Origin: a virus
Taxonomy: Duplodnaviria > Caudoviricetes
Virus record (IMG/VR): IMGVR_UViG_3300010429_000387
Coordinates: 128,001-192,000 of that record
Reading direction: 5' to 3' (one strand)
Length of the DNA: 64,000 nucleotides
Positions 3,071 through 59,661 of the stretch are shown here, one piece after another. A program made the position numbers and the translations under genes. The notes under the pieces are model-generated. The model was not told the DNA's origin. It saw only the letters and a program-made list of their open reading frames with translations, and did no database searches. The number at the start of each line of letters is the position of its first letter. Position 1 is the first letter of the stretch.

Positions 3071-4348
3071 ATGCCCCGTGAGCGCACTACTTGGAACCGC
3101 ACAGAAATCGCAAGGACGGCTGGCCTCAAGGTTGCCGATCCCTACACCATGAACCAGGATCACCCGCAACCGAAAGCGGATGCGTATGTGACTGGGGATC
3201 CCTCTTCCTTTGGTGAGGATGTTCATCCTGCCAACGGGACCTGGGAAGCTGAGTACGCAGGAGGGCAGGTCAAGAGGAACGAGATCGGGATGCCGGAGAT
3301 GAGGGGTGATACCTTCAACCATCCCGAGAAGACCGCCTCTGAAGAGGTCCTGACCAAGAAGGCGGCTCTCTGTGTCGCCATCGCTCGGGCGATCCTCCCC
3401 AAGACGGCATCCTCCACCGAGATCGAAGACCAGTCCCTTTCCTTCATGCACCTTCCCGACTCAGAGGTCATGAGCACCTACACCCGACTGGCACAGGACC
3501 AGAAGGAAGGTCAGGAGGAGCAGGCCCAGGCTCAGCAGAAGCAGGGTGGCGAGATGCCTCCCCAGTTCAAGGAGAACGCTGAGAAGAAGAAGGAAGAGGC
3601 CGAGGCCAAGAAGGAGCAGGACAAGAAGGCTCAGGACCAGAAGGAAGGTCAGGGACAGCAGGATCAGGCTCAGGGACAGCAGAAGCAGGCTCAGCAGGAG
3701 CAGATCGCCCAGCTCCAGCAGCAGGCTCAGCAGATCCAGCAGCAGATCGCCCAGCTCCAGCAGCAAGCTCAGGCCCAGCAGCAGGCTCCTGTCGCCCAGG
3801 GTCAGCAGGTCCAGAGCCAGGCTCAGCAGGTTGCCCAGGCAGTCCAGCAAGCCATCGCTCAGGGTCAGGACCCAGTCCAGGCCGTTCAACAGATCATGCA
3901 GCAGCAGGTCCCTGTTGCCCAGCAGCAGGCTCCTATCGGACAGGATGCTGAACTCATCGACGCCATGCTTGCTCAGGACCCCATCCAGGCCCCCACGGCT
4001 GAGATGGAGATCCAGATCGAGACACCCTCGATGGATGTTGGTGAAGTCCAGCTTGGACCGGAGGATGATGTCCTCAACCAGCTCTTCGCCAGCAATGCTG
4101 AAGTTCGTCTGGCCCAGCAGGCTCAGGGACAGGACCCAGACCAGGATCAGGGTCAGGCCCAGCAGAAGCAGGCCCATGTGGTCCGCACTGCCTCCATGCG
4201 TACCGTCGGGACTCGTCCCACTGGTGGCGTGAGCCAGATTGGTGGCCTCCCCTCAGCCGGTTCTTCTGGTGGTGGGGACAAGCTGTCGAGCCTCTGGAAC
4301 TCGGCACCCGATGTTCGTGAGGCATTTGGCCTTCCGACAAACCGATGA
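3071..4348 (+). CDS. Putative scaffolding protein, Gln-rich
   Basis: AAGGAAAGGA RBS before ATG 3071; long Q/E/A-rich helical region; sits between protease and decoration/capsid genes. Confidence 0.65.
   Translation: MPRERTTWNRTEIARTAGLKVADPYTMNQDHPQPKADAYVTGDPSSFGEDVHPANGTWEAEYAGGQVKRNEIGMPEMRGDTFNHPEKTASEEVLTKKAALCVAIARAILPKTASSTEIEDQSLSFMHLPDSEVMSTYTRLAQDQKEGQEEQAQAQQKQGGEMPPQFKENAEKKKEEAEAKKEQDKKAQDQKEGQGQQDQAQGQQKQAQQEQIAQLQQQAQQIQQQIAQLQQQAQAQQQAPVAQGQQVQSQAQQVAQAVQQAIAQGQDPVQAVQQIMQQQVPVAQQQAPIGQDAELIDAMLAQDPIQAPTAEMEIQIETPSMDVGEVQLGPEDDVLNQLFASNAEVRLAQQAQGQDPDQDQGQAQQKQAHVVRTASMRTVGTRPTGGVSQIGGLPSAGSSGGGDKLSSLWNSAPDVREAFGLPTNR
3490..3930 (+). repeat. Low-complexity CAG-rich (poly-Gln) coding repeat
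   Basis: Repeated CAGATCGCCCAGCTCCAGCAGCA and CAGGACCAGAAGGAAGGTCAG units. Confidence 0.8.
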
Positions 4349-4386: not shown

Positions 4387-4415
4387 GTGAGACTCCCTCA
4401 ACCCTCTGGGTTGCC

Positions 4416-4433
4416 TAGATGTAGATGAAGATG
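4416..4433 (+). promoter_or_regulatory. AGAT-repeat leader element
   Basis: TAGATGTAGATGAAGATG; the same motif recurs at 11509, 30411, 44316 and 58275. Confidence 0.6.
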
Positions 4434-5117: not shown

Positions 5118-5990
5118 ATGGTAACCAACGAGATCAAGCAACAGATCATCTCGGAGTACATCAAGACTGCCGCTGGCCGAGCCAAGCTGGCTGCCTCGAT
5201 GATCCAGCCCCTCCGCCTCCGTCGTGACTACACGGCAGTGGGTCGCAAGACCTTCCTTGTCGAGCAGTTGCCTGACGGAGCACTCCCGATCTATGACAAG
5301 GATCCGGATGTGACCGCCTACGTCGTGGGTGAGGAAGGTGAGAACATTCTCGCCATCCAGAAGCCTCGCCGGGTCATCTTCCCCTTGTTCGAGATCGCCT
5401 CGAACCCGGAGATCCCCCTCACCCAGATCAAGGAGCGTCGCTTCGATCTGATTGAGAGGGCTCAGGACCTCGCCAAGGCCCAGATCCAGGCTGCTGAGGA
5501 TGAGCGTGTGTTTGCGGTTCTGGACAGCATTGCTGTCTCGGGCTTCGACACCCTCCCCGGCCAGACCAACCCGGACATCAACGTGGTTGCCCCCATCTCT
5601 CCGAGCGTCCTCGCTGACGCATTCGCTGAGGTGGAGCGTCACGACCTCCGAGTTGCCAGGATCTACATGAATGCGACGGACTATGCGGACATCCGCAAGT
5701 TCGGTCGTGACATCCTGGACATCGAGAGCCAGGCCGTTCTGCTCAAGACTGGTCTCCAGGCCACCCTCTGGGGCGCCCAGATCATCACGAGCCGTCTGGT
5801 CCCTGCTGGCTTCGTGTACATCGCTGCTGAGCCCGAGAACTTCGGTCGCTTCCCCGTCCGCACGGAACTCACCGTTCTGTCGGCCGACGACCCCAAGGCT
5901 CGGACCATCGGCTTCTCCTGCTTCGAGAACGTCGGCATCGGCGCCTTCAACCCCCGTGGCCTCACCCGCCTGGTGGTTACCCGAGTCTGA
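5118..5990 (+). CDS. Major capsid protein (HK97-like fold, short)
   Basis: Strong codon bias; E-loop-like segment (FLVEQLPDGALPIYDKD...VGEEG), spine helix (LIERAQDLAKAQIQAAEDERVF), C-terminal FENVGIGAFNPRG; followed by a terminator. Confidence 0.85.
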   Translation: MVTNEIKQQIISEYIKTAAGRAKLAASMIQPLRLRRDYTAVGRKTFLVEQLPDGALPIYDKDPDVTAYVVGEEGENILAIQKPRRVIFPLFEIASNPEIPLTQIKERRFDLIERAQDLAKAQIQAAEDERVFAVLDSIAVSGFDTLPGQTNPDINVVAPISPSVLADAFAEVERHDLRVARIYMNATDYADIRKFGRDILDIESQAVLLKTGLQATLWGAQIITSRLVPAGFVYIAAEPENFGRFPVRTELTVLSADDPKARTIGFSCFENVGIGAFNPRGLTRLVVTRV

Positions 5991-9608: not shown

Positions 9609-10631
9609 ATGCGAGACCCCTGGAAAGTATCGTCCGAAGACGACAAGCAGTCCCGGTTCGAGGAGGGCAAGCCTGCTGACCCCACCAAGAACATGAGCCC
9701 CGAAGACGCCAAGGAGTGGAAGGCTCAGAACGACAAGAACAAGGACAACTTCAAGTCCGCTGCCTCCGCCTCTGAGCTGAAAGAGATGCAGGAGCTTCTG
9801 AAGGAGAAGGGGTACGACCCCAAGGATGCCAAGAAGCTCCAAGGCGAGGGGATGGGTACTCATGAGCTGGAGCGTCGTCTGAAGGAGAAGGGGGGTCTTG
9901 AAAGGACCCACGGCCTCAAGAAGAAGACGGCTGCCTCTGAGGATGACAGGATCAACCGCTTAGTTCAGTCCATCGAGGGTGATCTGGAGCAGTTCAAGTC
10001 TGCCTGGAAGAAGTACCAGGGCGACCCTGGGAAGTACAAGCCCCAGCTCGAAAACGCCAAGCGGGACCTGACTGCTATCGGTACCGCTACCCGTACTGCC
10101 ATCCGAACCCTTGAGGGTCTGAGCAAGACAGCCTCCCTTCGCAACTTTGTTCGTTTGGCGAACATGAAGTTTGCCACCATCAGCGACCAGGACACACTCG
10201 AAGGTCTCCTTGAGATGGAGATCGAGTCGATGGACGGGGACCGGTCTGAGGCCAGCCTGAACTCTGAGATCAAGAGTGCGGCCAAAGCCTATGACTCAGC
10301 CGTTGAGAAGTCTCTCAAGGAATGGGCCACCAAGAACCTCGACAAGTTCGACCTGGAAGACGGACCTCTGAAGGGGTCCAAGGATGCTGATGATGTGGTG
10401 GGTGTCCTGATGGACCTCCGTGGTGGGGCAGGATACCTCTACTTCATGGAAGCCGAGGGTCATGGTGTTGGTACTTGGGACGGGGATTGGGATCCCTGCT
10501 TCAAGGAGACCAAGACCATCGAGGAGTTGTCCAAGTGGATGAAGGGCAAGACCAAGGGCCAGTACCAGAAGCTCAAGAGCGCTCTGGAGGAACGGGCGAT
10601 GGAGCTTGTTCCGGAGCCTGACGAGGAATGA
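9609..10631 (+). CDS. Highly charged modular protein, candidate internal head protein
   Basis: K/E/D-rich modules delimited by KSAAS, KTAAS, KTAS. Confidence 0.7.
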   Translation: MRDPWKVSSEDDKQSRFEEGKPADPTKNMSPEDAKEWKAQNDKNKDNFKSAASASELKEMQELLKEKGYDPKDAKKLQGEGMGTHELERRLKEKGGLERTHGLKKKTAASEDDRINRLVQSIEGDLEQFKSAWKKYQGDPGKYKPQLENAKRDLTAIGTATRTAIRTLEGLSKTASLRNFVRLANMKFATISDQDTLEGLLEMEIESMDGDRSEASLNSEIKSAAKAYDSAVEKSLKEWATKNLDKFDLEDGPLKGSKDADDVVGVLMDLRGGAGYLYFMEAEGHGVGTWDGDWDPCFKETKTIEELSKWMKGKTKGQYQKLKSALEERAMELVPEPDEE

Positions 10632-11512
10632 ACCAACCTCTCGTCAGCCGACCCCCCTACGGATCTCCCGTTTCCCAGTCGGGTCTCCCTCAAGGGGACC
10701 CTGCTGGGAAGGGTGTGTCGTTGGACCCGTCCATTCCAGGGGTCTCCACCTACGTCAAGCCCTCTGGGGAGGCCCCCAGGGAGCCCAGCGTGGAAGACTC
10801 CTCCATGTACCGGGTGGATAACGCCGACAACCTCCTAAAGGACCAGGGGCGGCAAGACGAGATAGACCACTCCCAGGCCAAGCCAACCTACCAACGCCCA
10901 GGGGAGCAGAACAGCAGCCCCAAGACCAAGTACCCCTATCGGGATGGGGTACCCAACCGACACAACGCAGCCCTCATCGAGCGTGTAGCTCGGAGGGCTG
11001 CTGATGAGGTCATCGTCCAGAACGTGGTCAACCTCTGGCTGCTCAAGACAGCCCATGAGGTGACCATCCCACTGGAGGGGCAGGTCAAGGTAGCAGTCAA
11101 GCTCTCTGAGGTGGAGTCCGGGCTCAACCCAAAAGTGTTGGAGAGAGCCCAGAAGTGCTCCGTTGGACTCAAGAGGGCTGATACAGGAAACCTCAGGTGG
11201 ATCTTTACTGTTGACGCCGGGAACGGTCCAAAGTTGGTTCGCCTGAAGGCTACCCGCAAGGGGAACACCACAGCCCTCGCCAAGATGGACGTGGCCTTCT
11301 CTTGCTCTTGTAAGGCTTGGAGGTGGCTTGGTTCCGAGTACCATGCCAAGGGGGAAAAGTATCTCGATGGGAAGCCCACCGGGACTGCTTCGACCCCTGA
11401 CATCAAGGACCCGGAGAGGATCAATCGGGTCTGTAAGCACGTTGCCGCTGTGATCAACCAAGTTCGGGGCTGGACAGTCCCGGTCAAGAAGAAGAAGGCG
11501 GCTCCCAAATGA
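10628..11512 (+). CDS. SWIM-type zinc-finger protein
   Basis: CSC...CKH motif (FSCSCKAWRW...VCKHVAAV); ATGA overlap with the previous gene. Confidence 0.7.
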   Translation: MNQPLVSRPPYGSPVSQSGLPQGDPAGKGVSLDPSIPGVSTYVKPSGEAPREPSVEDSSMYRVDNADNLLKDQGRQDEIDHSQAKPTYQRPGEQNSSPKTKYPYRDGVPNRHNAALIERVARRAADEVIVQNVVNLWLLKTAHEVTIPLEGQVKVAVKLSEVESGLNPKVLERAQKCSVGLKRADTGNLRWIFTVDAGNGPKLVRLKATRKGNTTALAKMDVAFSCSCKAWRWLGSEYHAKGEKYLDGKPTGTASTPDIKDPERINRVCKHVAAVINQVRGWTVPVKKKKAAPK

Positions 11513-11540
11513 AGATGAAGATGACAGAGGAGGCTGCTAG

Positions 11541-11954
11541 ATGCCCACATATCAGATCGAATGCCATGAATGCGGAACGACCAGAGACCAACGCCTCACC
11601 TTCTCCGAGTACGACAAGGTGAAGTCTGGTGAAAAGGCCATCCAGTGTAGCAACTGTGGCCTTCCTGCACAGATCGGCTTCTCTCCTGGAACCCTTGGAT
11701 TCGTCCTCAAAGAGGGTGAGTCTGGTGGGTGGGCCTCTAAGTCAATCAAAGAGAATGCCTACCGCAAGAAGAGGCGTCAAGAGATGGCCCGTAGGGAGAA
11801 GGATCACGTATTCAAGGCAAGCCTCCAACCCAACTATGACGGCACAGAAACCGGCACCTGGAGGGAGGCCCAGGAGCTAGCTCGTAAAGAGAAGGGCGAT
11901 GGTTCTGCGCAAACCTATGATCCTCTTGTCAAGAAGGAGCAGGTGGCATCATGA
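11541..11954 (+). CDS. FmdB-like zinc-ribbon protein
   Basis: MPTYQIECHECG...CSNCG signature; GAGGAGG RBS. Confidence 0.8.
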   Translation: MPTYQIECHECGTTRDQRLTFSEYDKVKSGEKAIQCSNCGLPAQIGFSPGTLGFVLKEGESGGWASKSIKENAYRKKRRQEMARREKDHVFKASLQPNYDGTETGTWREAQELARKEKGDGSAQTYDPLVKKEQVAS

Positions 11955-15966: not shown

Positions 15967-15988
15967 TAACCCAGCGGTAGTACGGTAG

Positions 15989-16041
15989 ACCTTCTGTGCC
16001 GATAGATTCTACCAGGACTCTTCGGCACAGAAGGTTTTTTT
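15989..16041 (+). terminator. Rho-independent terminator
   Basis: ACCTTCTGTGCCGA...TCGGCACAGAAGGT 14-bp stem followed by T-run. Confidence 0.8.
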
Positions 16042-16056
16042 CTAAGAGGGACCCCT

Positions 16057-30384: not shown

Positions 30385-30408
30385 CGGCCCCCGGTTTTCC
30401 GGGGGCCG
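30385..30408 (+). other. GC hairpin followed by AGAT element
   Basis: CGGCCCCCGG-TTTT-CCGGGGGCCG then CATAGATGTA. Confidence 0.65.
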
Positions 30409-30477
30409 CATAGATGTATAACGGGACCCAAATCACATCTCTTGACCGAGATAGACCCAGATTTAGATGAGGCTGAA

Positions 30478-42605: not shown

Positions 42606-43799
42606 GTGTACTACTACCTGATCTCATCCCTGAAGAGGCGCCTGGTTCTGGAGCTGCAAGACAGCTTCAGTAAGCATCCTGTGTACGAGAAGGCAGTCCC
42701 GTATATCCAGAACAAGTACGCCTTCGATGAGCGACCTCAGTTCGGGATTGTGGTCAAGGGGGCCTCTGGGAACAAGGTCCAGCTCTCAGCCGAGAACTTC
42801 GTTGGCGTGGTTCAGAGCCACGTCATGTTGGCCTTCCTGGACACCCCCTCCTATCTGTTGGAGTGGGTTCGAGAGGACCTGAACACCATCAAGGAGAATG
42901 GGGATCAGGTCCCCGTTCAAGCGGGGGTCTACTACATCGAGTGCCTGACTGCCCCAACCAATCAGGGGGAGGCTGGCACCTTCGTGATAGACCCCCTTCT
43001 CACTGTCACCGATGAGCCCCTCCTCAAGGTGATCTCAGGGGTTGAGCGGACAGCCCACCTTCAGAATGAGCCGGTCTCTGGAACTCTGAGGCTCTGGGAG
43101 AACCGTAGGACCCCCCTTCTTGAGGGTCGGGACTACACTGTCGATGGGCAGGAGGTCACGATCCTCGGGAGGCTCCTCCCAGGGGCGGTCATCACAGCGG
43201 ACTACCGCTATGCTGCCCCGTCGATAGGCCCCATTGAGTGGAAGTGGAACACCTCGAACTGGAAGACTCTTCCAGGGGTGGTCATGGCCTTCGGGAAGAG
43301 GGGTAAGCCTGGTGACAAGCAGGCGGTGGTGATCTACGAGGACAGAGTTGATGTCGCCAACGCCTACGGGGGTCGCTTCGAGGCTTCCTTCGACCTTGAC
43401 GTGATTGCCCAGGACCCGATCCAGATGGAGGAGATGGCAGACTACGTTGTCATGTCTCTCTGGGGAGAGAAGAGAAGTGCCCTTTCATTCGAGGGCATCG
43501 AGATTCTTGACCTTTCAATGGGTGGTGAGGCAGAGGAAGCGTATGACGAGAACGCTGACCTCTACTACTACAATGCTTCCCTGTCTATTCAGTTGCAAGC
43601 GGACTGGGAGATTCACGTCCCCATGCCGTTTACAGTCAGTCGTGCCGTTGCTTTCACACGTTCTGCCGAGGCAGCCATGAACGCAGATCGTAGTGGGTAC
43701 GGAGAGTCAAGCATAAGGGCCTACTCTCAAGGTGGTCTCTTCTTGGCTACAGTCCCGGTCATTGTTGGTCGGAACAGCTCGTATGAGCGAATCACATAA
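42606..43799 (+). CDS. Putative tail terminator/completion protein
   Basis: GTG start; beta-rich with FDLDVIAQD; lies shortly before the sheath gene. Confidence 0.55.
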   Translation: MYYYLISSLKRRLVLELQDSFSKHPVYEKAVPYIQNKYAFDERPQFGIVVKGASGNKVQLSAENFVGVVQSHVMLAFLDTPSYLLEWVREDLNTIKENGDQVPVQAGVYYIECLTAPTNQGEAGTFVIDPLLTVTDEPLLKVISGVERTAHLQNEPVSGTLRLWENRRTPLLEGRDYTVDGQEVTILGRLLPGAVITADYRYAAPSIGPIEWKWNTSNWKTLPGVVMAFGKRGKPGDKQAVVIYEDRVDVANAYGGRFEASFDLDVIAQDPIQMEEMADYVVMSLWGEKRSALSFEGIEILDLSMGGEAEEAYDENADLYYYNASLSIQLQADWEIHVPMPFTVSRAVAFTRSAEAAMNADRSGYGESSIRAYSQGGLFLATVPVIVGRNSSYERIT

Positions 43800-43819
43800 G
43801 ATGAAGAAGGAATGAACCC

Positions 43820-44260
43820 ATGCCCAAGTACGTCTTTGAGTGCCAGACCTGCTCTACACGGTTCGAGCGTACCCTGAAGATGGGGGACCACCCGACTCAG
43901 CCCTGTCCTTCTTGCAAGGAGGATGCCCCTAGACTCTTTGCAGGTAATGGGTTTGGGTTCGGATTCTCTGCCCCTGCCAACGCTGCCCCAGCAAATACAG
44001 GGGTTCACAGTCAGGACTACCCGACTGCTGACCAGATTGTTGGTCGGAGTGCAGAGCAACGGTGGGGAACCTACAACAAGCGGGACGAAGTCAAGAAGAA
44101 GGTGCGTGAAGAGGGCAAGAGCCCAGCCCTGGCTCGCTTGGATGGAGATGGATACACCGAGTATTCGGCTATGGCCCCGGAAGAGCGAGGGGCTAGGGAG
44201 AAACTGGTGGACTATGCCGTCCAGATAGAGAAACAGCCCGAAGCAAAGCCACCCCAATAA
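43820..44260 (+). CDS. FmdB-like zinc-ribbon protein
   Basis: MPKYVFECQTCSTRFE...CPSC signature. Confidence 0.8.
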   Translation: MPKYVFECQTCSTRFERTLKMGDHPTQPCPSCKEDAPRLFAGNGFGFGFSAPANAAPANTGVHSQDYPTADQIVGRSAEQRWGTYNKRDEVKKKVREEGKSPALARLDGDGYTEYSAMAPEERGAREKLVDYAVQIEKQPEAKPPQ

Positions 44261-44294: not shown

Positions 44295-44445
44295 CCGGTA
44301 CTCGCAGACCGGACACTAGATGTAGATCGACTCAAATCAGATTGCTGCCAGATGGTTGCCCTCTGGGGCCATCACAAACACCGAGGAATTTCCTCGGAAG
44401 ATCAGATCGGATGACATCCCCCAGAACTGATTTGAGGAGAATCGG
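44295..44445 (+). promoter_or_regulatory. Structured 5' leader of the sheath gene with AGAT repeats
   Basis: Six AGAT units (44318-44407) interleaved with hairpins, e.g. CCGAGGAA-T-TTCCTCGG at 44381-44397. Confidence 0.6.
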
Positions 44446-47400
44446 ATGGCCCTCGGACCTTTCTCTACCTACGTACCCCCTGGCGTTTACTCTCGCACCC
44501 TGACCGAAGCGAACGTTGCGGCCCTAGTGGCTGGACTTCGCATCCCCGTGATCATCGGGGTCGGCCAAGAGGAGCTGGAACAGCTCGACCTTGAAATGGT
44601 GCGAGGCTCTTCTTCGACTCTCGATCAGCAGATCGTGAACGAGGATGTGACCCTCCGCTGGATCGTGGACGACACCAACCCCACGAACCCGACCCTTGGT
44701 GCGAACGACGGGACCAAGACCCGGTTCAAGGTTCGCAACTTCCCGTTGGTTGACGGGCAAGGCTTCGGCCGTACCACGAACGATGTCCGGTCTGTGACCG
44801 TGACCGTCGATGGGATCCCGGTGGCCGTTGGATCTGTTCGGGGCTCCTCTGGAGAGGTCATCCTTCAGGTTCCCCCTCCTTCCACGGCAGTGGTCCGATG
44901 CACCTACTTCTTCCATCGTGGTGACACGGCCTTCACGGATGACGTGTCGGACCAGGTCACTGCTACGGCTGCCACGATCATCACCCCTGGCTTCGAGCCC
45001 TACAACATCGTGGCTGGCTCCAACGACACCCTGAAGATCCGGGTGGACGGTGGAGTGGAGTACACGGTGACGTTCCTCCCTGGTTCTGGAACCACGGCGG
45101 CTTCGCTCAAGACCCAGATTGATGCCGGAGTCATTGCCGGGCTGTCTACCTCGGTCTTCGTCGCCAACGACGGAAGCAACCACCTTCAGTTCACGGCCCA
45201 GACCTCTATCGAGATCGGGACCGGAAGTGTCAACGGGATCCTCGGTCTCTCCAATGGGCAGAAGACCTCCCGGAACCAGAGCTTCAGGGTCTACCAGATC
45301 CCGATGGTCGATGGGACCTCTGGGGGCGTTACCACTACCGACCCCTCGAAGGTGGTGGTCAAAGTCAACAACGTCCAGGTGATCCCGACCTCGGTCGATG
45401 GTACTCATGGTCTTGTGACCCTTGGCTTCGCACCCCCTCCAGGGTCGAGCGTGGTCATCACCTACTGGGCCAACACCTGGCAGGACACCTTTGACTACCT
45501 CCCCAACACCCTGGTCACCAACGTCATTCGGGCGGGAATCTCCCCGAACCGTAGCGACTACATCCAGGGCCAGGACTTCGTGGTGAGCAACCCGTCTCCG
45601 GACGTGTCGATCATCCACTGGGGTGCCAGCTACTCCGTCTCCTCGACCCTCAGGACACCCGGTGCTGAGCCTCTGGATGAGTCTCAGATTATCCCGACGA
45701 TGGTGGACGACAAGCTGTGGTTGGCCCCTTGCACGGCCTTCGTGGACACCTCGGTCATCCCGGCCAGGGCAAGCACCACGGTCTTCGTGCTCCCCGAGGT
45801 CCCCACCACAGGGAACGGCCGTGACACGGTTCTCGGGACCCAGACCTACAGCAGCATCGCCAATAGCCGGATGGACCTCGTCACGAACCGTCCGGACCTG
45901 GTGATTGCCCGAGTGGGCAGAACCCTCCGTGATGCCCTCGGTCGCCCAGCGGCCAAGGTGGTTGCGGTGGATGGGTCTTCCAAGAAGATCGTCCTCAAGG
46001 ACCCGCTTCCCCCGGACTGGAACGTGTATGCCACGTTCAACTACAGCCGTCTGGTGGATGACACCTATATCTTCACCAACAAGACCCCAGGCCCCATCGG
46101 CCAGGGTCAGTACGAGGTCTTCTCCTCGCTCTTCAACTCGAACCTCTATCAGGTTCGGTTCGGGAGCAAGGGTGGTGGTCTTGTTGAGACCGTCCAGTGG
46201 CCCCGTGGTGTCGAGCAGGTTCCGGATGCCATGCACGTTGGTGGCACCCCGGTTGGCGAGACCGTGACTGTGACCTTCGGTCAGGCAGCCGCTACGAATG
46301 CGGTGTTCACGAACAAGGGTGCCCAGCCCTTCTCGTTCTACAGCCCTTCTTCGGCTACCTGGAGGACCCTCCTCAACGGGAATCCGGTGGTCAGCACCAA
46401 CCTGGTGACTGCCTCCCGAGCCTACATGGTCAGCAAGCCGGTCAAGCTGTCTGGTGGAGGGAACATCACCATCACCAGTGCCTCGAACGACCTGTTCAAC
46501 CTCACCATCGACGGTGTGGACATCGACGTTTCACTGACCCCCGGAACCAGGACCCCGGCCCAGATCGCTACAGACATCAATGCAGCGATTGATGCCGACC
46601 CGGCCTTCTCCTCGGTCACGAACAACTACATGTGTACGGCAATCCCTGGCCCTGGGACTGGCTACACCTTCTTCGTGATCCGTAGCTACTCGACTCCGGG
46701 TGCTCTCCCTGGTGGCTTCGATCACCAGAGCTACGTCCGGATTCGTCAGGGAACGGCGGAAAGCACTCTCGGGTTCACGACCTTCCAGCGTGCTGACGGT
46801 ACCACGGGTGCAGTCAACAAGCCTGCAACCCTCGTTGGGGCCAATGCGGAGGCTTTCGTCTTCACAAGCGGCCTGAACGATGTGCTCAAGGTCCGGATCA
46901 ATGGGGTGGACTTCCAGGTCACGATCAACCCCTCTTCGACCACGGCAACCCTGGTGGTGGCGGACATCAATGCCGTCATCGCTTCTCAGGGCACTGCCTC
47001 GGTAGGAACTCTGGGCAACCTGAACCACGTCCGTATCACGAGCAACATCAACTCCGAGCAGTCCTCGGTGGTGATCCTCAATGGTTCGGCAAATGCCACT
47101 CTCGGCTTCAGTGAGGGTGACTTCGCCAGCCAGTCTCGGGTCAACGTCCAAGAGGTGGTCAACCGCCTCATGGCTACCCCGAACATTGCAGTCACCTCCT
47201 GGGGTTCTGCTGGAAGCCCTGGAACGGCTCCGACTGCCAACACCACGGGTGCGGTGGTCTACCCGACAACCATCGCTGGGCAGGTCTACTTGACCATCGA
47301 GTCCCTGGTGGTGGGTTCTGCCTCCTCCATCGCCTTCGGGACGGGTGCCAACTCGGCCTTCAACATCCTCACTGGAACCCAGATCACCCCTGGGACCGAT

Positions 47401-48765
47401 GGGGACAATGGGGAAGATGCCACGGACAACTTCGTGGTCACCTCGACCAACCCCTATGGCTCTGCCGGAACGGGCGTCCCTGGGCAGACCTACACGGATG
47501 AGCGCACGGGCCTCAGGTTCACGGTCCTCCCGGCTTCGGGTGGTTCGTACACCTCTGGTGGGCACTTCTCCCTGAACGTCTCCCAGACCTTCGAGGTGAA
47601 CCCTGGGGTCCCCTTCCTGGCAATCCCAGGCTTGGAGACCATCGTGACGAACACGGTCAACGTGGGAGTCAACGACACGGCCAACGTCCAGACCTTCAAC
47701 CCGAGCGGGCTGGAGCCGAAGAACGGGGACTTCTACTTCATCTCCTACCGGTTCCTGAAGCAGGACTACTCGACCAGGATCTACCGTCAGTTCAAGACCA
47801 TCGAGGCGAACTACGGCAAGCTCTCAGCCGAGAACCGGGTCACCCTTGGAGCCTACTTGGCGATCCTCAACGGGGCCGTCCTGGTGGGTGTCAAGCAAGT
47901 CCACAAGGTCCCCAACACGAACCAGGCGTCTGCTCAGGTCTTCATCGACGCCATCAACAACCTCGCAACCCCGCTGCCTGGGAACATCAAGCCTGACCTC
48001 CTGGTCCCCCTCTCGACGGACACAGCGGTCTACTCGTTCCTGACCCAGCATTGCGAGATCATGAGCAACATCCGCAACCAGTCGGAGCGGATGGGCTTCA
48101 TCGGGTTCGCTTCGGGTACCAGCCCCACGAATGCTCAGACGGTGGCCCGTAGCCTCTTCAGCCAGAGGATCGTCGCCTTCTACCCGGACTCGGCAGTCAT
48201 CACCCTCTCGAATGAGCTTGGTGAGACCTTCGAGACCCTGGTGGACGGAACCTTCTTCGCTGCTGCTGCTTCGGGTGCGGTCTGCTCCCCAGCAGTTGAC
48301 GTGGCAACCCCCTACACCCGTCGTCGGATTCAGGGCTTCACCCGGATCCCCCGTATCCTCGACCCGGTGGAAGCCAACCAGACTGCGGTTGCTGGTGTGA
48401 CCCTCCTGGAGGACCTGGACCCCATCGTCCGGATTCGTCAGGGCCTCACGACCAACATGACCTCGGTCCTCACCCGTCTCCCGACGGTCACCCAGATTGC
48501 TGACTATGTCAGCATCAACAGCCGCTCGGTCCTCGATGCCTTCGTCGGGACCAAGTTCCTGTCGAGCCGGACCAATGAAGTCGAGGTCTCGATGACCTCG
48601 CTCTTCAACCAGCTCATCCAGCAGGAGATCGTGGCTGCCTTCACGGGTATCTCGGCAGTCATCGACCCAGAGGATCCCACGATTCTCCGTGCCGAAGCCT
48701 ACTACCAGCCGATCTTCCCGCTCCTGTACCTGGTCCTCACGTTCAACCTGCGTGCCCGGATCTGA
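44446..48765 (+). CDS. Contractile tail sheath protein with large insertions
   Basis: N-terminal YVPPGVYSRT; C-terminal sheath core (RIRQGLTT...IADYV...YQPIFPLLYLVLTFNL); GAGGAG RBS. Confidence 0.88.
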   Translation: MALGPFSTYVPPGVYSRTLTEANVAALVAGLRIPVIIGVGQEELEQLDLEMVRGSSSTLDQQIVNEDVTLRWIVDDTNPTNPTLGANDGTKTRFKVRNFPLVDGQGFGRTTNDVRSVTVTVDGIPVAVGSVRGSSGEVILQVPPPSTAVVRCTYFFHRGDTAFTDDVSDQVTATAATIITPGFEPYNIVAGSNDTLKIRVDGGVEYTVTFLPGSGTTAASLKTQIDAGVIAGLSTSVFVANDGSNHLQFTAQTSIEIGTGSVNGILGLSNGQKTSRNQSFRVYQIPMVDGTSGGVTTTDPSKVVVKVNNVQVIPTSVDGTHGLVTLGFAPPPGSSVVITYWANTWQDTFDYLPNTLVTNVIRAGISPNRSDYIQGQDFVVSNPSPDVSIIHWGASYSVSSTLRTPGAEPLDESQIIPTMVDDKLWLAPCTAFVDTSVIPARASTTVFVLPEVPTTGNGRDTVLGTQTYSSIANSRMDLVTNRPDLVIARVGRTLRDALGRPAAKVVAVDGSSKKIVLKDPLPPDWNVYATFNYSRLVDDTYIFTNKTPGPIGQGQYEVFSSLFNSNLYQVRFGSKGGGLVETVQWPRGVEQVPDAMHVGGTPVGETVTVTFGQAAATNAVFTNKGAQPFSFYSPSSATWRTLLNGNPVVSTNLVTASRAYMVSKPVKLSGGGNITITSASNDLFNLTIDGVDIDVSLTPGTRTPAQIATDINAAIDADPAFSSVTNNYMCTAIPGPGTGYTFFVIRSYSTPGALPGGFDHQSYVRIRQGTAESTLGFTTFQRADGTTGAVNKPATLVGANAEAFVFTSGLNDVLKVRINGVDFQVTINPSSTTATLVVADINAVIASQGTASVGTLGNLNHVRITSNINSEQSSVVILNGSANATLGFSEGDFASQSRVNVQEVVNRLMATPNIAVTSWGSAGSPGTAPTANTTGAVVYPTTIAGQVYLTIESLVVGSASSIAFGTGANSAFNILTGTQITPGTDGDNGEDATDNFVVTSTNPYGSAGTGVPGQTYTDERTGLRFTVLPASGGSYTSGGHFSLNVSQTFEVNPGVPFLAIPGLETIVTNTVNVGVNDTANVQTFNPSGLEPKNGDFYFISYRFLKQDYSTRIYRQFKTIEANYGKLSAENRVTLGAYLAILNGAVLVGVKQVHKVPNTNQASAQVFIDAINNLATPLPGNIKPDLLVPLSTDTAVYSFLTQHCEIMSNIRNQSERMGFIGFASGTSPTNAQTVARSLFSQRIVAFYPDSAVITLSNELGETFETLVDGTFFAAAASGAVCSPAVDVATPYTRRRIQGFTRIPRILDPVEANQTAVAGVTLLEDLDPIVRIRQGLTTNMTSVLTRLPTVTQIADYVSINSRSVLDAFVGTKFLSSRTNEVEVSMTSLFNQLIQQEIVAAFTGISAVIDPEDPTILRAEAYYQPIFPLLYLVLTFNLRARI

Positions 48766-48782
48766 TTCGTAAGTAGGCTTGG

Positions 48783-48824
48783 AAACGGCCGTATCTCTTC
48801 GGAGGTACGGCCGTTTTCGTTTTA
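48783..48824 (+). terminator. Rho-independent terminator after sheath
   Basis: AAACGGCCGTATCTC-TTCG-GAGGTACGGCCGTTTT. Confidence 0.85.
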
Positions 48825-48839
48825 TGACCCTCTGTGAGT

Positions 48840-50850: not shown

Positions 50851-50891
50851 CCTCTTGGTTGAAAGAACCTCCCCTGGTCCGTTGTAGAGCT

Positions 50892-57517: not shown

Positions 57518-58240
57518 ATGGGAAACCCGAGGGAACTCAACACTTACATCTACCGAATGGGGACCGCCCCCAACACTCGTGTAGCCGTCAGCCAGAAGAA
57601 CAAGGTCTACGGCTACATGGTTGGAAAGAACAAGTTCCAACAGATCGGTGTGGTCTCTGAGTTCGGCTTCGATGAGAGCCGGACCATCGATCCCGTCCGT
57701 GGCGTAGGCTTTGGTGACACGGTTGCCGAGCTTGTGCCGGGCGTGACCGAGCCGATGGCCCTGACCTTGAACCGGACCCTGCTCTACACCGTGAACATCT
57801 TCCAGGTGCTCGGGTACAAGGGTGGCGTCGAAGGTCTGGTCAGGTCGCTCCGGCATCACCGCTGGCCGTTCGACATCAAGCAAGAGCTGGTCTTCTCCGA
57901 GCTGTCCTCGAAGGAGGACACGGTTGGTGTGGACTCGAAGAACATCAAGAAGGCCGTTCAGCAGCCCCAGGGTACTTCGAGCCTCTACACGAGTGACATC
58001 AAGGCCCTCTTCACCTTCTACGAGGGTTGCTGGCTCAACAGCTACTCCGCCTCGTTCACGAGCGATGCAGCCATCGTGGCTGAGAACTCTTCGGTGACTG
58101 TCACGGACATCATCGACGGTTTCTCGACCTACGGTGAGTTCATCGACACGGGCCTCAGCCCCGGTGGTGGTGGAACCGCTGGTGGTGGCTACTCGCTCCG
58201 GTTCGCCGGAGGAGCACAGCCCTCAACAACCGTCGGCTGA
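57518..58240 (+). CDS. Tail tube protein
   Basis: IGVVSEF...SRTIDPVRGVGFGD..AELVPG...LNRTLLY...PFDI...YEGCWLNSYS tube pattern; GAGGAG RBS. Confidence 0.82.
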   Translation: MGNPRELNTYIYRMGTAPNTRVAVSQKNKVYGYMVGKNKFQQIGVVSEFGFDESRTIDPVRGVGFGDTVAELVPGVTEPMALTLNRTLLYTVNIFQVLGYKGGVEGLVRSLRHHRWPFDIKQELVFSELSSKEDTVGVDSKNIKKAVQQPQGTSSLYTSDIKALFTFYEGCWLNSYSASFTSDAAIVAENSSVTVTDIIDGFSTYGEFIDTGLSPGGGGTAGGGYSLRFAGGAQPSTTVG

Positions 58241-58246
58241 TGGCTG

Positions 58247-58413
58247 AGATAGGCCCCCTTCAAGGAGGGGGCCTTAGATGAGATTGGACATGCGGCAACG
58301 GATGTAGATGTAGAAGTATCAGATCAGACCCAGATTGTTCCCTCACTCTCCCCGCTTGGTCCTCTGGGCGGGGAGGCTAGATCGGACCCCCGAACTAGAT
58401 GGGATGTAGATGT
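58247..58413 (+). promoter_or_regulatory. AGAT-repeat/hairpin element between tube and tail-assembly genes
   Basis: Nine AGAT units in about 165 nt with hairpins at 58251-58274 and 58348-58375. Confidence 0.65.
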
Positions 58414-58479
58414 ACACATTCACCTCTGCCGTCACCGCTGTCCTTCTCCACCACAACCCCAAACTGGTAGGGTGCGAGA

Positions 58480-59661
58480 ATGGCAAAGTTGCAAGCGAAG
58501 AAGATCACCGAAGCTCTCAAGAAGGCCCAGCGAGTAGGAGAGGTAGAGGTTTCGTTCACCGTTGCTGACTGCAACGTAGTGCTCAGGAGTCTCCGACCTG
58601 AGGAGTATGAAGCCGCTATGCAAGCGGCTCAGGAGTTCGAGGAACTCCAGTACATCAACGCCTTCAAGCGGGAGCACATCTCCCGTGCCGTCTGCGAAAT
58701 CAACGGAGAGTCTCTCCGTGAGTATGATTTCGTGGAGGTGGACGTTGAGGAAACGGACCCTCGAACAGGCAAGGTTTCAACCAAGACTGTAGCCTTGGAA
58801 CGGCATCAGTTCGTCTCCGAGTACATCTTGGCAACCTGGTCTCGGGAAGTCATCGACACCACCTTCCGGAAGTTCAACGAGGTGGTAGCCAAGTCTGAGA
58901 AGGCTTCCACTGAAGGGGTTGAGTTCACCATCCCCGATGAGACCCCGGAGGAGAAGTACCGCCGTCTGCTCATCGAGGCCAAGGAGATTGAAGGGCAAAT
59001 CCCCTTCGAGCTGGTTGGTCGGATCCTGGACGAGGTGGGGTATATGTCCCGGTCGTCCAAGGGTGAGTTGGAAGGGGTCGATCAGAAGCTCGCCCAGGTG
59101 GCGGAGGAGATCCCCCCTGGAGAGGTTCCCGAACCCCAGCCAGTCCCGGTAGCAGCCCCTCAGAGGGCTCCGGTTCGAGCACAAGCTCCAAGCCACCAGG
59201 CACCAGCAAACCCCCCTCAGGAGGCCCCTGAAGTGCCCCTGGCCCGCCCGGTGCGCCCCAACCTCCCTCCGGAGCTTCAGCATCCCGATCCCGAGGTGCT
59301 CATGAGGAGCCGGAAGCCTCTGAACCAGGTGGCCTCCCCGGTTCCCCAACCACCCCAGGCTCAGGTCCCCCAGGCGACTCAGCCCGCCCAGCCCCCTCCG
59401 GCAATGCAGGCCCGCCCGGTCATCCCAGCCACTCCGGCAGCCCTTCGTAGGGCTCAGGAGATCGAGGCGATGGAGCAGCAGGCAGCTCTTCCAGATGACC
59501 CAACTCCTCCCCCCATCCAGGGTGGAACCAGGTTGGCCGAAGGCATCCCTGAGTTGGCCGAGAACATCGCCAAGGTCAACCCTCAGGCAGCCGAACGGAT
59601 CTTCGAGCAGCCCCCGGTTGCAGGGATCAACCCCAGGTTCAAAGCCCCCCCACGTCTTTGA
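58480..59661 (+). CDS. Putative tail assembly chaperone with Pro/Gln-rich C-terminus
   Basis: VVLRSLRPEE...ISRAVCEING pattern; position after the tube gene. Confidence 0.6.
   Translation: MAKLQAKKITEALKKAQRVGEVEVSFTVADCNVVLRSLRPEEYEAAMQAAQEFEELQYINAFKREHISRAVCEINGESLREYDFVEVDVEETDPRTGKVSTKTVALERHQFVSEYILATWSREVIDTTFRKFNEVVAKSEKASTEGVEFTIPDETPEEKYRRLLIEAKEIEGQIPFELVGRILDEVGYMSRSSKGELEGVDQKLAQVAEEIPPGEVPEPQPVPVAAPQRAPVRAQAPSHQAPANPPQEAPEVPLARPVRPNLPPELQHPDPEVLMRSRKPLNQVASPVPQPPQAQVPQATQPAQPPPAMQARPVIPATPAALRRAQEIEAMEQQAALPDDPTPPPIQGGTRLAEGIPELAENIAKVNPQAAERIFEQPPVAGINPRFKAPPRL

What the first reader, a model, noticed from the sequence alone, without database searches (positions are those of the whole stretch)
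58247..58413. Strand-specific AGAT-repeat plus hairpin element recurring in late-gene leaders (candidate undescribed regulatory system)
Seen: AGAT occurs at 58247, 58276, 58281, 58306, 58321, 58332, 58379, 58397 and 58408. The units fall in short runs with 5-6 nt period (GATGTAGATGTAGAAG; AGATCAGACCCAGATT; TAGATGGGATGTAGATG), only on the sense strand and mostly between GC hairpins. The same element lies before the decoration/capsid genes (4416), the sheath gene (44316), gene 30478 (30411-30468) and, in short form AAGATGAAG, before both Zn-ribbon genes (11512, 43798). Established: short periodic sense-strand repeats in leaders are how ring-shaped RNA-binding proteins such as TRAP ((G/U)AG repeats) and Hfq recognise targets. 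Inference: a phage-wide operator controlling antitermination, processing, or translation/stoichiometry of late genes.
Basis: partly seen in the sequence, partly recalled or inferred. Interest (0 to 1): 0.8.

Follow-up and report, generated by a model that had tools for sequence, protein, structure and literature searches.

The report
Repeated A-R-A-Y leader arrays, megaphage
A 407-kb phage and its many uncultivated relatives carry one-strand-only runs of a four-letter unit (AGAT/AGAC/AAAT) spaced every 5-6 bases, next to hairpins, in front of their capsid, tail-sheath and tail-chaperone genes; this looks like an undescribed control signal for late virion genes, but what reads it is unknown.

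Summary
All nine AGAT positions are exact. The 239-nt spacer 58241-58479 is the most AGAT-rich intergenic region of the whole 407-kb genome: 9 sense copies, none antisense, and 0 of 2000 shuffles reach 9. It lies between a tail-tube-like gene and a tail-assembly-chaperone-like gene.

The real unit is A-R-A-Y, repeated every 5-6 nt. Bare AGAT is not enriched in intergenic DNA genome-wide. The arrays are confined to about six leaders, all in the virion module.

Conservation in relatives is the strongest evidence:
- In 60 orthologous sheath-gene leaders, AGAT occurs 197 times sense and 39 antisense; CAGATC occurs 65 times sense and 0 antisense.
- Unit spacing peaks at 6, 5, 12 and 11 nt.
- The capsid-operon array keeps A-x-A-T every 6 nt, next to a hairpin whose stem covaries.
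- The orthologous tube-chaperone spacers keep the array, plus a hairpin that buries the ribosome-binding site and AUG.

No known RNA family, TRAP gene or Hfq gene matches. My best reading (about 0.45) is a single-stranded RNA platform for an oligomeric binding factor. A DNA-level reading (promoter or pause element) is a serious rival (about 0.3). No transcript data could be obtained. Earlier first-stage notes of this scan flagged the same stretch and the sheath-leader array.

The parts
57518..58240 (+). Upstream gene (240 aa), probably the tail tube protein
   Evidence: 68-93% identical in 11 relatives. ESM-Atlas look-alike clusters carry Phi812_tail_tube (28% of members) and DUF2001 (19%); this is a lead only. 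The AlphaFold model failed at pLDDT 30.
58251..58274 (+). Hairpin 1: 9-bp GC stem (AGGCCCCCT / AGGGGGCCT), 6-nt loop, no U tract, followed directly by TAGATGAGATTGG
   Evidence: It is not called as an intrinsic terminator. A hairpin at the same place followed by (C)AGATGAGATTGG is seen in L006, L201 and L198.
58280..58316 (+). Most conserved block of the spacer, GAGATTGGACATGCGGCAACGGATGTAGATGTAGAAG. It holds the first copy of the 13-nt repeat (58300-58312).
   Evidence: Nearly identical in L005, L006, L009, L011, L201 and L198, where the flanking chaperone protein is only about 46-70% identical. The invariant spacer columns in 7 sequences are G-A-T-G-x-A-x-A-T at 58301-58309.
58300..58336 (+). 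Longest run of units: GGAT-gt-AGAT-gt-AGAA-gt-atc-AGAT-c-AGAC-cc-AGAT (period 5-6 nt)
   Evidence: Orthologues keep cAGATyrGAyCcAGAt here.
58348..58375 (+). Hairpin 2: 8-bp stem (CTCCCCGC / GCGGGGAG), extendable to about 12 bp, no U tract. Present in only some relatives.
   Evidence: Shorter in L005, L006, L201 and L198; absent in L009 and L011.
58377..58414 (+). Third cluster, CTAGATCGGACCCCCGAACTAGATGGGATGTAGATGTA, with the second copy of the 13-nt repeat (58402-58414)
   Evidence: An (A/G)ATGTA(G/A/T)ATGTA block at the equivalent place in L005, L006, L201, L198, L194 and L010.
58440..58484 (+). Hairpin in which GTCCTTCTCCACC pairs with GGGTGCGAGAATGGC, burying the SD-like GGTG/GAGA and the AUG of the chaperone gene
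   Evidence: It is in the MFE structure in most of the 12 orthologous leaders, with different arm sequences in L010, L008 and L197 (also 69). Pairing probability of -14..+3 is 0.83, rank 152 of 156 leaders in this genome. The shuffle test was not significant, because base composition alone favours this pairing.
58480..59661 (+). Downstream gene (393 aa): a well-folded N-terminal domain like a tail assembly chaperone, then a disordered proline-rich tail
   Evidence: AlphaFold pLDDT is above 90 for residues about 20-145. The best PDB match is the HK97 tail assembly chaperone 2ob9 (prob 0.97, TM 0.58, E 0.07, weak). 78 homologues, all in huge-phage contigs. Synteny tube-spacer-this gene-432 aa-roughly 1100-1300 aa is conserved.
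4399..4433 (+). Capsid-operon copy: short hairpin CAACCC-tct-GGGTTG, then three hexamers TAGATG-TAGATG-AAGATG, 38 nt before the 4471 gene and the major head protein gene 5118-5990
   Evidence: 26 of 31 distinct orthologous upstream regions keep an array here. Of those arrays, A1, A3 and T4 recur every 6 nt in nearly all, and in the closer relatives the adjacent stem covaries (CAACCC/GGGTTG, CAGCC/GGCTG, CAATCAC/GTGATTG, CAGGGGC/GCCCCTG). Major head protein by PHROG 2522, E 2e-52.
30385..30468 (+). Copy before gene 30478 (DUF5659, 84 aa): GC hairpin 30385-30408, then TAGATGTA and AGAT-AGAC-cc-AGAT-tt-AGAT up to the SD
44295..44412 (+). Copy in the 185-nt leader of the 1439-aa sheath-like gene (44446-48765): hairpin 44295-44312, units at 44318, 44324, 44334, 44339 and 44350, two hairpins, then units at 44399 and 44404
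   Evidence: Conserved as arrays in about 58 orthologous leaders. Sheath-family look-alike clusters score 0.90-0.92; lead only.
11507..11525 (+). Short form AAATGAAGATGAAGATGAC (three units) spanning the stop of gene 10628-11512, before Zn-ribbon gene 11541
   Evidence: Zn_ribbon_8 match is below the curated cut-off.
43798..43812 (+). Weak short form TAAGATGAAGAAGGA (one AGAT) before Zn-ribbon gene 43820-44260 (FmdB-type Zn_ribbon_8)
   Evidence: Relatives often carry 2-3 units before the orthologous Zn-ribbon gene.

Best explanation
The element is a family-conserved cis-signal. It consists of arrays of 3-7 sense-strand A-R-A-Y units (consensus YCAGAYC or AGATGT) spaced 5-6 nt apart, set beside GC hairpins that lack U tracts. 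It lies in the untranslated leaders of a few virion-gene units: the capsid operon, the sheath gene, the tube-to-chaperone junction, gene 30478 and the Zn-ribbon genes.

I think it most likely acts in the mRNA. The unpaired units would form a multi-site platform on which an oligomeric single-strand RNA-binding factor assembles, with the neighbouring hairpin as anchor or boundary. That factor could be phage-encoded (the syntenic FmdB-type Zn-ribbon proteins are one untested candidate) or host-encoded. Binding would then set how much of each late message is translated or survives.

In the spacer of the finding, the arrays lie upstream of a conserved hairpin that occludes the ribosome-binding site and AUG of the tail-assembly-chaperone gene. 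The system would then tune chaperone output relative to the tube protein made just upstream.

Shown: the arrays, their periodicity, strand bias, conservation and gene set, and the occluding hairpin. Inferred: that the arrays are transcribed, that something binds them, and what the outcome is.
For: 1. The arrays are real and non-random: 9 AGAT against 1.56 expected, 0 of 2000 shuffles, and no antisense copies.
2. Sixty orthologous sheath leaders carry them: ARAY 409 sense against 115 antisense, and 51/80 in coding controls. CAGATC is 65 against 0, present in 43 of 60 leaders. Unit-to-unit lags peak at 6 (109), 5 (53), 12 (57) and 11 (39). Units sit mostly between -140 and -20 of the start codon.
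3. Spacing that varies between 5 and 6 nt, strict one-strand orientation with no inverted copies, and cluster positions that drift between relatives are what single-strand recognition gives (as in the TRAP operator, from established knowledge). They are not typical of a fixed double-strand operator.
4. Capsid-operon arrays keep A-x-A-T every 6 nt, while the TGTA word is present in only about 60% of them. The unit, not a promoter-like hexamer, is what is conserved.
5. The adjacent hairpin at the capsid site keeps its structure through compensatory changes.
6. The hairpins next to arrays lack U tracts, although canonical hairpin-plus-T-run terminators exist elsewhere in the window.
7. Units are less base-paired than the rest of the leader in 47 of 59 leaders.
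8. In relatives, a conserved motif (ATAAwGCTTTCGTT / CTTTTGT) lies 20-60 nt upstream of the sheath arrays, independent of the upstream stop codon. This is compatible with a promoter that would put the arrays inside the transcript.
9. The chaperone leader keeps an RBS/AUG-occluding hairpin in most of 12 orthologues and ranks 152 of 156 for RBS pairing.
Against:
- No binding protein is identified. TRAP and Hfq families are absent from the phage.
- The unpaired-ness of the units is modest (0.48 against 0.58), and other A-rich tetramers are even less paired.
- RBS occlusion is not common to all array leaders. The capsid-operon RBS is among the most open (rank 7 of 156).
- The shuffle test for the chaperone hairpin is not significant.
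- The 37-nt block 58280-58316 is conserved almost letter for letter without covariation, which looks more like a protein-DNA or promoter site.
- The GATGTA words resemble the phage's other promoter-like hexamers GGTGTA and GTTGTA.
Confidence: 0.45

Rival explanations
1. DNA-level reading. The GATGTAGATGTA blocks are late promoters of the phage's own NNTGTA type, recognised by a phage sigma-like factor. The downstream units, read on the non-template strand, re-engage that factor or a NusG-like protein and cause promoter-proximal pausing or loading of an elongation factor. This would be analogous to sigma-dependent pausing at lambda PR' or RfaH at ops.
For: - The genome has two very clear promoter-like classes built on a TGTA core: GGTTGAAAG-N13/14-aCGTTGTAg-N4-ATG (about 30 copies) and YGGTGTA 9-10 nt before ATG.
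- The target spacer has TTGGAC-N17-GATGTAG, which resembles class A.
- GGTGTAGATCAGA precedes tRNA genes.
- The block 58280-58316 is conserved without covariation.
- The phage encodes a protein with two sigma70 region-4 domains (53.8 bits), two ORFs with weak region-2 matches, and an NGN/KOW-containing protein. It has no RNAP beta subunit detectable with PF00562.
- Non-template-strand reading would also explain the strand specificity.
Against: - TGTA is not the conserved part of the capsid-operon array; A-x-A-T is.
- Only 26 of 60 sheath leaders contain RATGTA at all.
- Classes A and B sit at a fixed 5 or 9-10 nt from the start codon, whereas these sites are 38-179 nt away.
- There is no sigma-70-type promoter in the spacer.
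- The 12-mer TAGATGTAGATG with up to 1 mismatch is no commoner than its reversed control in five related genomes.
Confidence: 0.3
2. RNA punctuation. The hairpin plus (C)UAGAU units mark endonuclease processing sites that cut the long late transcripts between cistrons. The upstream message is left with a protective 3' hairpin, which gives neighbouring genes different stabilities.
For: - A hairpin lies 0-4 nt before the first TAGAT at 58274, 58375, 4413, 44312 and 30408.
- The hairpins lack U tracts.
- The site after the abundant tube gene and before the chaperone gene is where differential stability would be useful.
- Phage T4 uses RNase E and RegB cuts in this way (PMC3014915).
Against: - One cut site would suffice, so 3-7 periodic units spread over 100 nt are not explained.
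- Distant relatives keep arrays without an adjacent hairpin.
- No nuclease is identified.
Confidence: 0.1
3. Passive single-stranded spacer or ribosome standby site. The repeats are simply a way to keep a stretch of a 58%-GC leader unpaired (no complementary RTYT words), so that 30S subunits can wait next to a structured RBS. No dedicated factor is involved.
For: - There are zero RTYT words in the 239-nt spacer, against 2.6 expected.
- Units are less paired than the rest of the leader.
- The chaperone RBS is strongly occluded.
Against: - An unstructured spacer needs no specific A-R-A-Y word and no 5-6 nt period, yet both are conserved over a whole phage family.
- The capsid leader has an open RBS and still keeps the array.
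Confidence: 0.1
4. No function: low-complexity DNA produced by slippage, or chance.
For: Bare AGAT is not enriched in intergenic DNA overall.
Against: - 0 of 2000 shuffles reach the observed count.
- The arrays are kept at three orthologous positions across dozens of relatives, with strand bias up to 65:0.
Confidence: 0.03

Closest known systems
TRAP operator of the Bacillus trp leader (11 (G/U)AG triplets separated by 2-3 nt, wrapped round an 11-mer ring)
   Same: Short sense-strand units with a variable period of 5-6 nt lie in a 5' leader next to alternative hairpins. Most units contain NAG.
   Different: The unit is four bases (A-R-A-Y) and allows A for G in 28% of copies. Runs are 3-7 units, not 9-11. 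No TRAP-family gene is present in the phage. The controlled genes are virion genes.
T4 gene 32 translational operator (5' pseudoknot nucleates cooperative gp32 binding along UUAA(A) repeats to the RBS; PMC3014915)
   Same: A structured element is followed by a run of short repeated single-strand units in a phage leader, giving translational control.
   Different: Here the repeats stop 55 nt or more before the chaperone RBS. They occur on several unrelated genes, so this would not be autoregulation of one SSB. The structured element is a simple hairpin.
HutP / hut antiterminator (two sets of three UAG triplets with 4-nt spacers on a hexamer)
   Same: Sets of three units, as at the capsid operon, could fit a trimeric face.
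   Different: The period is 5-6 nt, not 7. The unit is ARAY, not UAG. No terminator-antiterminator alternative was demonstrated.
Sigma-dependent promoter-proximal pause elements and ops/RfaH (non-template-strand words in the leaders of long operons)
   Same: Strand-specific words lie in the leaders of long operons. The phage encodes sigma-like and NGN/KOW proteins.
   Different: Those systems use one element at a fixed distance from the start site, not periodic arrays. The reading here is purely inferential.
The same phage's own promoter-like classes (TTGAAR-N16-GTTGTA-N5-ATG and YGGTGTA-N9/10-ATG)
   Same: The GATGTA words share the NNTGTA shape, and the spacer has TTGGAC 17 nt upstream of one of them.
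   Different: Distance to the start codon is not fixed. TGTA is not conserved in orthologous arrays. The word is tandemly repeated.

Membership tests
TRAP-type (G/U)AG operator | 9-11 (G/U)AG triplets separated by 2-3 nt | tested here: not met
   The period of 5-6 nt fits. However, the longest run is about 7 units, the second base is A in 28% of units, and the base before the unit is mostly C (54%).
TRAP-type (G/U)AG operator | A TRAP (TrpBP, PF02081) protein available to bind it | tested here: not met
   No match in the 407-kb phage genome at E<=0.1, while the control found Bacillus subtilis. The host is unknown and was not tested.
Hfq distal-face (A-R-N)n site | Contiguous A-R-N triplets (period 3) | tested here: not met
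   The period is 5-6 nt, and ARA is followed by YC/YG. No Hfq (PF17209) in the phage.
HutP site | Three UAG triplets with 4-nt spacers (period 7), twice | tested here: not met
   In the lag histogram, 7 nt is rare (12) against 6 nt (109) and 5 nt (53).
T4 gp32-type operator | Structured nucleation site followed by repeats that run over the RBS | tested here: not met
   A hairpin followed by repeats is present. But the last unit cluster ends at 58414 and the SD-like region starts at 58470. In the capsid leader the gap is 38 nt to the start codon.
Sigma-70-type promoter | TTGACA-16/18-TATAAT, at least 9 of 12 matches | tested here: not met
   0 sites in 58100-58600.
Phage's own TGTA promoter classes A/B | NNTGTA hexamer at a fixed 5 nt (A) or 9-10 nt (B) before the start codon; TGTA invariant | tested here: not met
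   The hexamer is present at 58301, 58307, 58403 and 58409, but 71-179 nt from the ATG. TGTA is absent from about 40% of orthologous capsid arrays and from 34 of 60 sheath leaders.
Intrinsic terminator | GC hairpin followed by a U tract | tested here: not met
   None was called in the spacer. Both hairpins are followed by (C)TAGAT. Canonical terminators with T runs exist at 15967-16056 and 48766-48839.
Any Rfam family | Covariance-model match at the gathering score | tested here: not met
   0 matches in the window at gathering score. Only two far sub-threshold matches in 58200-58520.
Leader peptide / small ORF | Conserved reading frame with synonymous-type variation | tested here: not met
   The 9-codon ORF 58278-58307 (read) loses its ATG in L009 and L011, and the substitutions are non-synonymous. 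Indels in the spacer are not multiples of 3.

The most novel reading that the evidence does not exclude
Huge phages of this clade possess a dedicated post-transcriptional regulon. A small phage-encoded oligomeric protein would bind A-R-A-Y arrays in the leaders of the capsid, sheath, tail-chaperone and its own mRNAs, and so time and scale virion-protein synthesis. The conserved FmdB-type Zn-ribbon proteins are candidates: one of them is encoded immediately upstream of the sheath leader (43820; the other is at 11541), and they are themselves often preceded by 2-3 units. This would be a new operator-regulator pair with TRAP-like geometry but unrelated parts.
Probability: 0.2. Interest if true: 0.8.

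Novelty: new variant of a known kind. Interest (0 to 1): 0.58.

Why it matters
Almost nothing is known about how uncultivated 350-530-kb phages schedule gene expression. This phage shows clear, separable sequence signals: two promoter-like classes that would give leaderless or near-leaderless mRNAs, plus this distinct array signal restricted to the major virion genes.

If the arrays are an RNA operator, they would be a rare example of periodic-repeat recognition outside the Bacillus trp and hut systems. They would also give a handle on late-gene stoichiometry (tube against chaperone, capsid against decoration) in megaphages.

Even as a pure annotation aid, the motif marks the major structural operons in a clade whose proteins mostly lack database matches. 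The claim is directly testable with one transcriptome and a few binding assays.

Tried and rejected
2. Close relatives among deposited phage genomes: only one 78-bp match.
3. The exact 12-mer TAGATGTAGATG (up to 1 mismatch) in five related genomes is no more frequent than its reversed control. The strict triple-unit pattern is only about 2-fold over its control (28 against 13). The motif is therefore degenerate and the regulon small.
4. RNAalifold on the MAFFT alignment of 12 chaperone leaders returned no pairs, because loop-length differences misalign the arms. I relied on per-sequence folds instead.
5. The shuffle test of RBS occlusion was not significant for most orthologues, because the pyrimidine-rich composition alone pairs with the purine-rich RBS.
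6. The AlphaFold model of the 240-aa upstream protein failed (pLDDT 30). The tube assignment rests on Atlas look-alikes only.
7. Dam/GATC-cluster reading: GATC is enriched in sheath leaders (135 in 60 leaders). But it is palindromic, so it cannot give a 65:0 strand bias, and only about a third of units contain it.
8. Pairing to the 16S 3' tail (GAUCC against GGAUC): this would explain only the AGATCC subtype, not the invariant A-R-A. Considered from memory and not tested.
9. Antisense-RNA partner: no RTYT arrays were found on the opposite strand in any intergenic region of the genome.
10. Leader-peptide reading of 58278-58307: rejected.
11. Genome sites 77324 and 42134 matched the pattern, but one is a start codon plus coding sequence and the other is of unclear context.
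12. Literature searches found no description of this motif.

Full report
**Setting.** The window is bases 128001-192000 of a 407,078-bp virus record with direct terminal repeats. It is about 58% GC, and almost all genes are on the + strand. The finding lies in the 239-nt spacer 58241-58479, between a 240-aa gene and a 393-aa gene.

The 240-aa protein is highly conserved (68-93% identity in 11 relatives). Its Atlas look-alikes include tail-tube families, which is a lead only.

The 393-aa protein has a confidently folded N-terminal domain. Its best PDB match is the HK97 tail assembly chaperone (prob 0.97, E 0.07). A disordered proline-rich tail follows. Downstream come a 432-aa gene and a 1307-aa gene, an order kept in relatives. 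So the spacer is the tube-to-chaperone junction of a contractile-tail module.

**The observation.** The nine AGAT positions are exact. With AGAC at 58326 there are ten AGAY units and no RTYT word on the same strand. Dinucleotide shuffles give 1.56 AGAT on average, and none of 2000 reaches nine. Among all 60-600-nt intergenic regions of the genome, on both strands, this one ranks first. The sheath-gene leader and the 30478 leader rank second and third, all on the sense strand.

The anatomy, in order:
- hairpin 1 (58251-58274), followed directly by TAGATGAGATTGG;
- a 37-nt block ending in GGATGTAGATGTAGAAG;
- the run AGAT-c-AGAC-cc-AGAT;
- hairpin 2 (58348-58375);
- CTAGATCGG...CTAGATGGGATGTAGATGTA, which holds the second copy of a 13-nt exact repeat;
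- a pyrimidine-rich leader.

Longer words pass. TAGATG is 13 sense against 1 antisense. In the 43 intergenic regions of the virion module, TAGAT(G) is the most enriched word of all. Chains of three or more units at 5-6 nt occur six times in intergenic DNA (10.7% of the genome) against seven times in coding DNA, and all six are on the + strand. The signal is thus a handful of dense arrays, not a general bias.

**Conservation.** This is the decisive evidence. The major head protein is more than 93% identical in hundreds of uncultivated contigs of up to 529 kb, so the phage belongs to a large clade. Three orthologous leaders were compared.

1. Capsid operon. 26 of 31 distinct upstream regions carry an array at the same place. 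Within the arrays, A1, A3 and T4 recur every six bases in nearly all, while the sixth base varies. TGTA therefore appears in only about 60% of them. In the closer relatives a short hairpin abuts the array, and its stem changes by compensatory substitutions.

2. Sheath-like gene. In 60 leaders:
   - AGAT is 197 sense against 39 antisense (20/10 in coding controls).
   - ARAY is 409 sense against 115 antisense.
   - CAGATC is 65 sense against 0 antisense, and occurs in 43 leaders.
   - Unit-to-unit distances peak at 6, 5, 12 and 11 nt.
   - Units lie mostly between -140 and -20 of the start codon.

3. The spacer of the finding. Eleven relatives keep the tube gene and a 96-222-nt spacer before the chaperone gene, and most keep a hairpin after the tube gene. 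The closer relatives also keep the GAGAyTGGACAwGCGG...GGATGTArATGnAGA block, a run of AGAT/AGAC/AAAT units and a second rATGTArATGTA block. Most keep a leader in which GTCCTTCTCnCACC pairs with GGTGnGAGAATGGC. In a 7-sequence alignment, nearly all the invariant spacer columns fall in three places: G-A-T-G-x-A-x-A-T at 58301-58309, two bases of the pyrimidine arm, and the ATG.

**What it is not.**
- No Rfam family matches.
- There is no sigma-70-type promoter and no intrinsic terminator in the spacer. Ordinary hairpin-plus-T-run terminators do exist elsewhere in the window.
- It is not a conserved small ORF.
- The phage has no TRAP, Hfq or PF00562-type RNAP beta gene.

**RNA or DNA?** This could not be settled, because no transcript data were obtainable.

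Points for an RNA-level array:
- The spacing varies between 5 and 6 nt, and copies never invert.
- Clusters drift in position between relatives.
- The conserved feature is the unit rather than a promoter-like hexamer.
- The adjacent hairpin covaries.
- Units tend to be unpaired (47 of 59 leaders, a modest effect).
- In relatives a separate conserved motif (ATAAwGCTTTCGTT / CTTTTGT) lies upstream of the sheath arrays and could be the promoter.
- The chaperone leader buries its RBS and AUG in a hairpin found in most of 12 orthologues, with a pairing probability of 0.83, rank 152 of 156 leaders in this genome.

Points for a DNA-level reading:
- The genome has two unmistakable promoter-like classes built on NNTGTA: GGTTGAAAG-N13/14-aCGTTGTAg-N4-ATG, and YGGTGTA 9-10 nt before ATG. 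First-stage notes on other windows saw the same classes independently.
- The spacer contains TTGGAC 17 nt before GATGTAG.
- The 37-nt block is conserved without covariation.
- The phage encodes a protein with two sigma region-4 domains, two weak region-2 ORFs and an NGN/KOW-containing protein.

I therefore put the RNA-platform reading at about 0.45 and the promoter/pause reading at about 0.3. Processing sites and a passive standby spacer get about 0.1 each.

**Gene set.** Arrays precede these genes:
- the decoration-like gene plus the major head protein gene (4471, 5118);
- gene 30478 (DUF5659);
- the sheath-like gene 44446;
- the chaperone-like gene 58480;
- in short form, Zn-ribbon gene 11541.

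A single weak unit precedes the second FmdB-type Zn-ribbon gene, 43820. The Zn-ribbon gene directly upstream of the sheath gene is syntenic across the clade, and in relatives it is often itself preceded by 2-3 units. That makes it a cheap candidate for the trans factor, but nothing here tests that.

**Comparison with known systems.** In geometry the arrays most resemble the TRAP operator. In architecture (structured element plus repeated single-strand units in a phage leader) they resemble the T4 gene 32 operator (PMC3014915). Each defining feature of those families that I could test was not met, so this is not a member of either. It may work like them.

**Verdict.** The feature is real, conserved and apparently undescribed. 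The mechanism is open.

Noticed in passing
window 50859-50891; about 30 further copies elsewhere in the genome: Bipartite promoter-like motif GGTTGAAAG-N13/14-aCGTTGTAg, with the ATG exactly 5 nt after GTTGTA and no Shine-Dalgarno. It resembles ECF-type promoters (TGAAAC-N16-CGTA, from memory) and implies leaderless mRNAs.
   Followed up: partly
window 6250 and 54812; many further copies elsewhere in the genome: Second promoter-like class, (t)tc(T)GGTGTA, 9-10 nt before start codons without an SD. GGTGTAGATCAGA versions precede tRNA genes at genome 67387 and 68561.
   Followed up: partly
window 8620, 28251, 34762, 36764 and 51253, all just after stop codons in short spacers: Recurrent pyrimidine-rich word in virion-module spacers (CCTCTTGTA, CTTCTTAT, TTCTTTCTAT). 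CTTAT, TTCTAT and TATGA are among the most enriched sense-only words there. It is possibly the general late promoter. CTTGTA and CTTGTGTA also lie upstream of the capsid and sheath arrays.
   Followed up: partly
genome 110110-111975 (L206:2110-3975), outside the window: 621-aa fusion protein with a weak NusG N-terminal-like match, a KOW motif (26.6 bits, above the cut-off) and a complete 5'-3' exonuclease/FEN domain. It sits between a clamp-loader-like gene and a sigma region-4 gene.
   Followed up: partly
genome 111989-112621 (L206:3989-4621): 210-aa protein with two sigma-70 region-4 HTH domains (53.8 bits) and no region 2. It could be a promoter-recognition or co-activator subunit.
   Followed up: no
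genome 58648-59811 and 59820-60614 (L207): Two adjacent ORFs (387 and 264 aa), each with a weak sub-threshold match to the first half of sigma-70 region 2. They are possible gp55-like minimal sigma factors.
   Followed up: no
window 58440-58484: Conserved hairpin that pairs a CU-rich leader segment with the SD-like GGTG/GAGA and the AUG of the chaperone-like gene. It is one of the four most occluded start sites among 156 leaders of the genome.
   Followed up: yes
window 43820-44260 and 11541-11954: Two small FmdB-type Zn-ribbon (Zn_ribbon_8) genes starting MPxYxFEC. The first is syntenic with the sheath gene across the clade.
   Followed up: partly
L114-L193, 20-60 nt upstream of the sheath-leader arrays: Motif (c/g)ATAA(t/a)GCTTTCGTT / CTTTTGT(T/G), conserved across relatives whether or not it overlaps the upstream stop codon, often followed about 12-18 nt later by GGTAGA.
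   Followed up: partly
window 5118-5990: The major head protein is 93-99% identical in the 80 best contigs shown (583 related stretches in all), while neighbouring tail proteins fall to 40-70% identity. This is unusually strong constraint on the capsid protein.
   Followed up: no
window 4002-4023 (inside gene 3071-4348): A four-unit chain, AGATGGAGATCCAGATCGAGAC, lies in coding sense about 400 nt upstream of the capsid-operon array. It may be chance or an internal copy.
   Followed up: no
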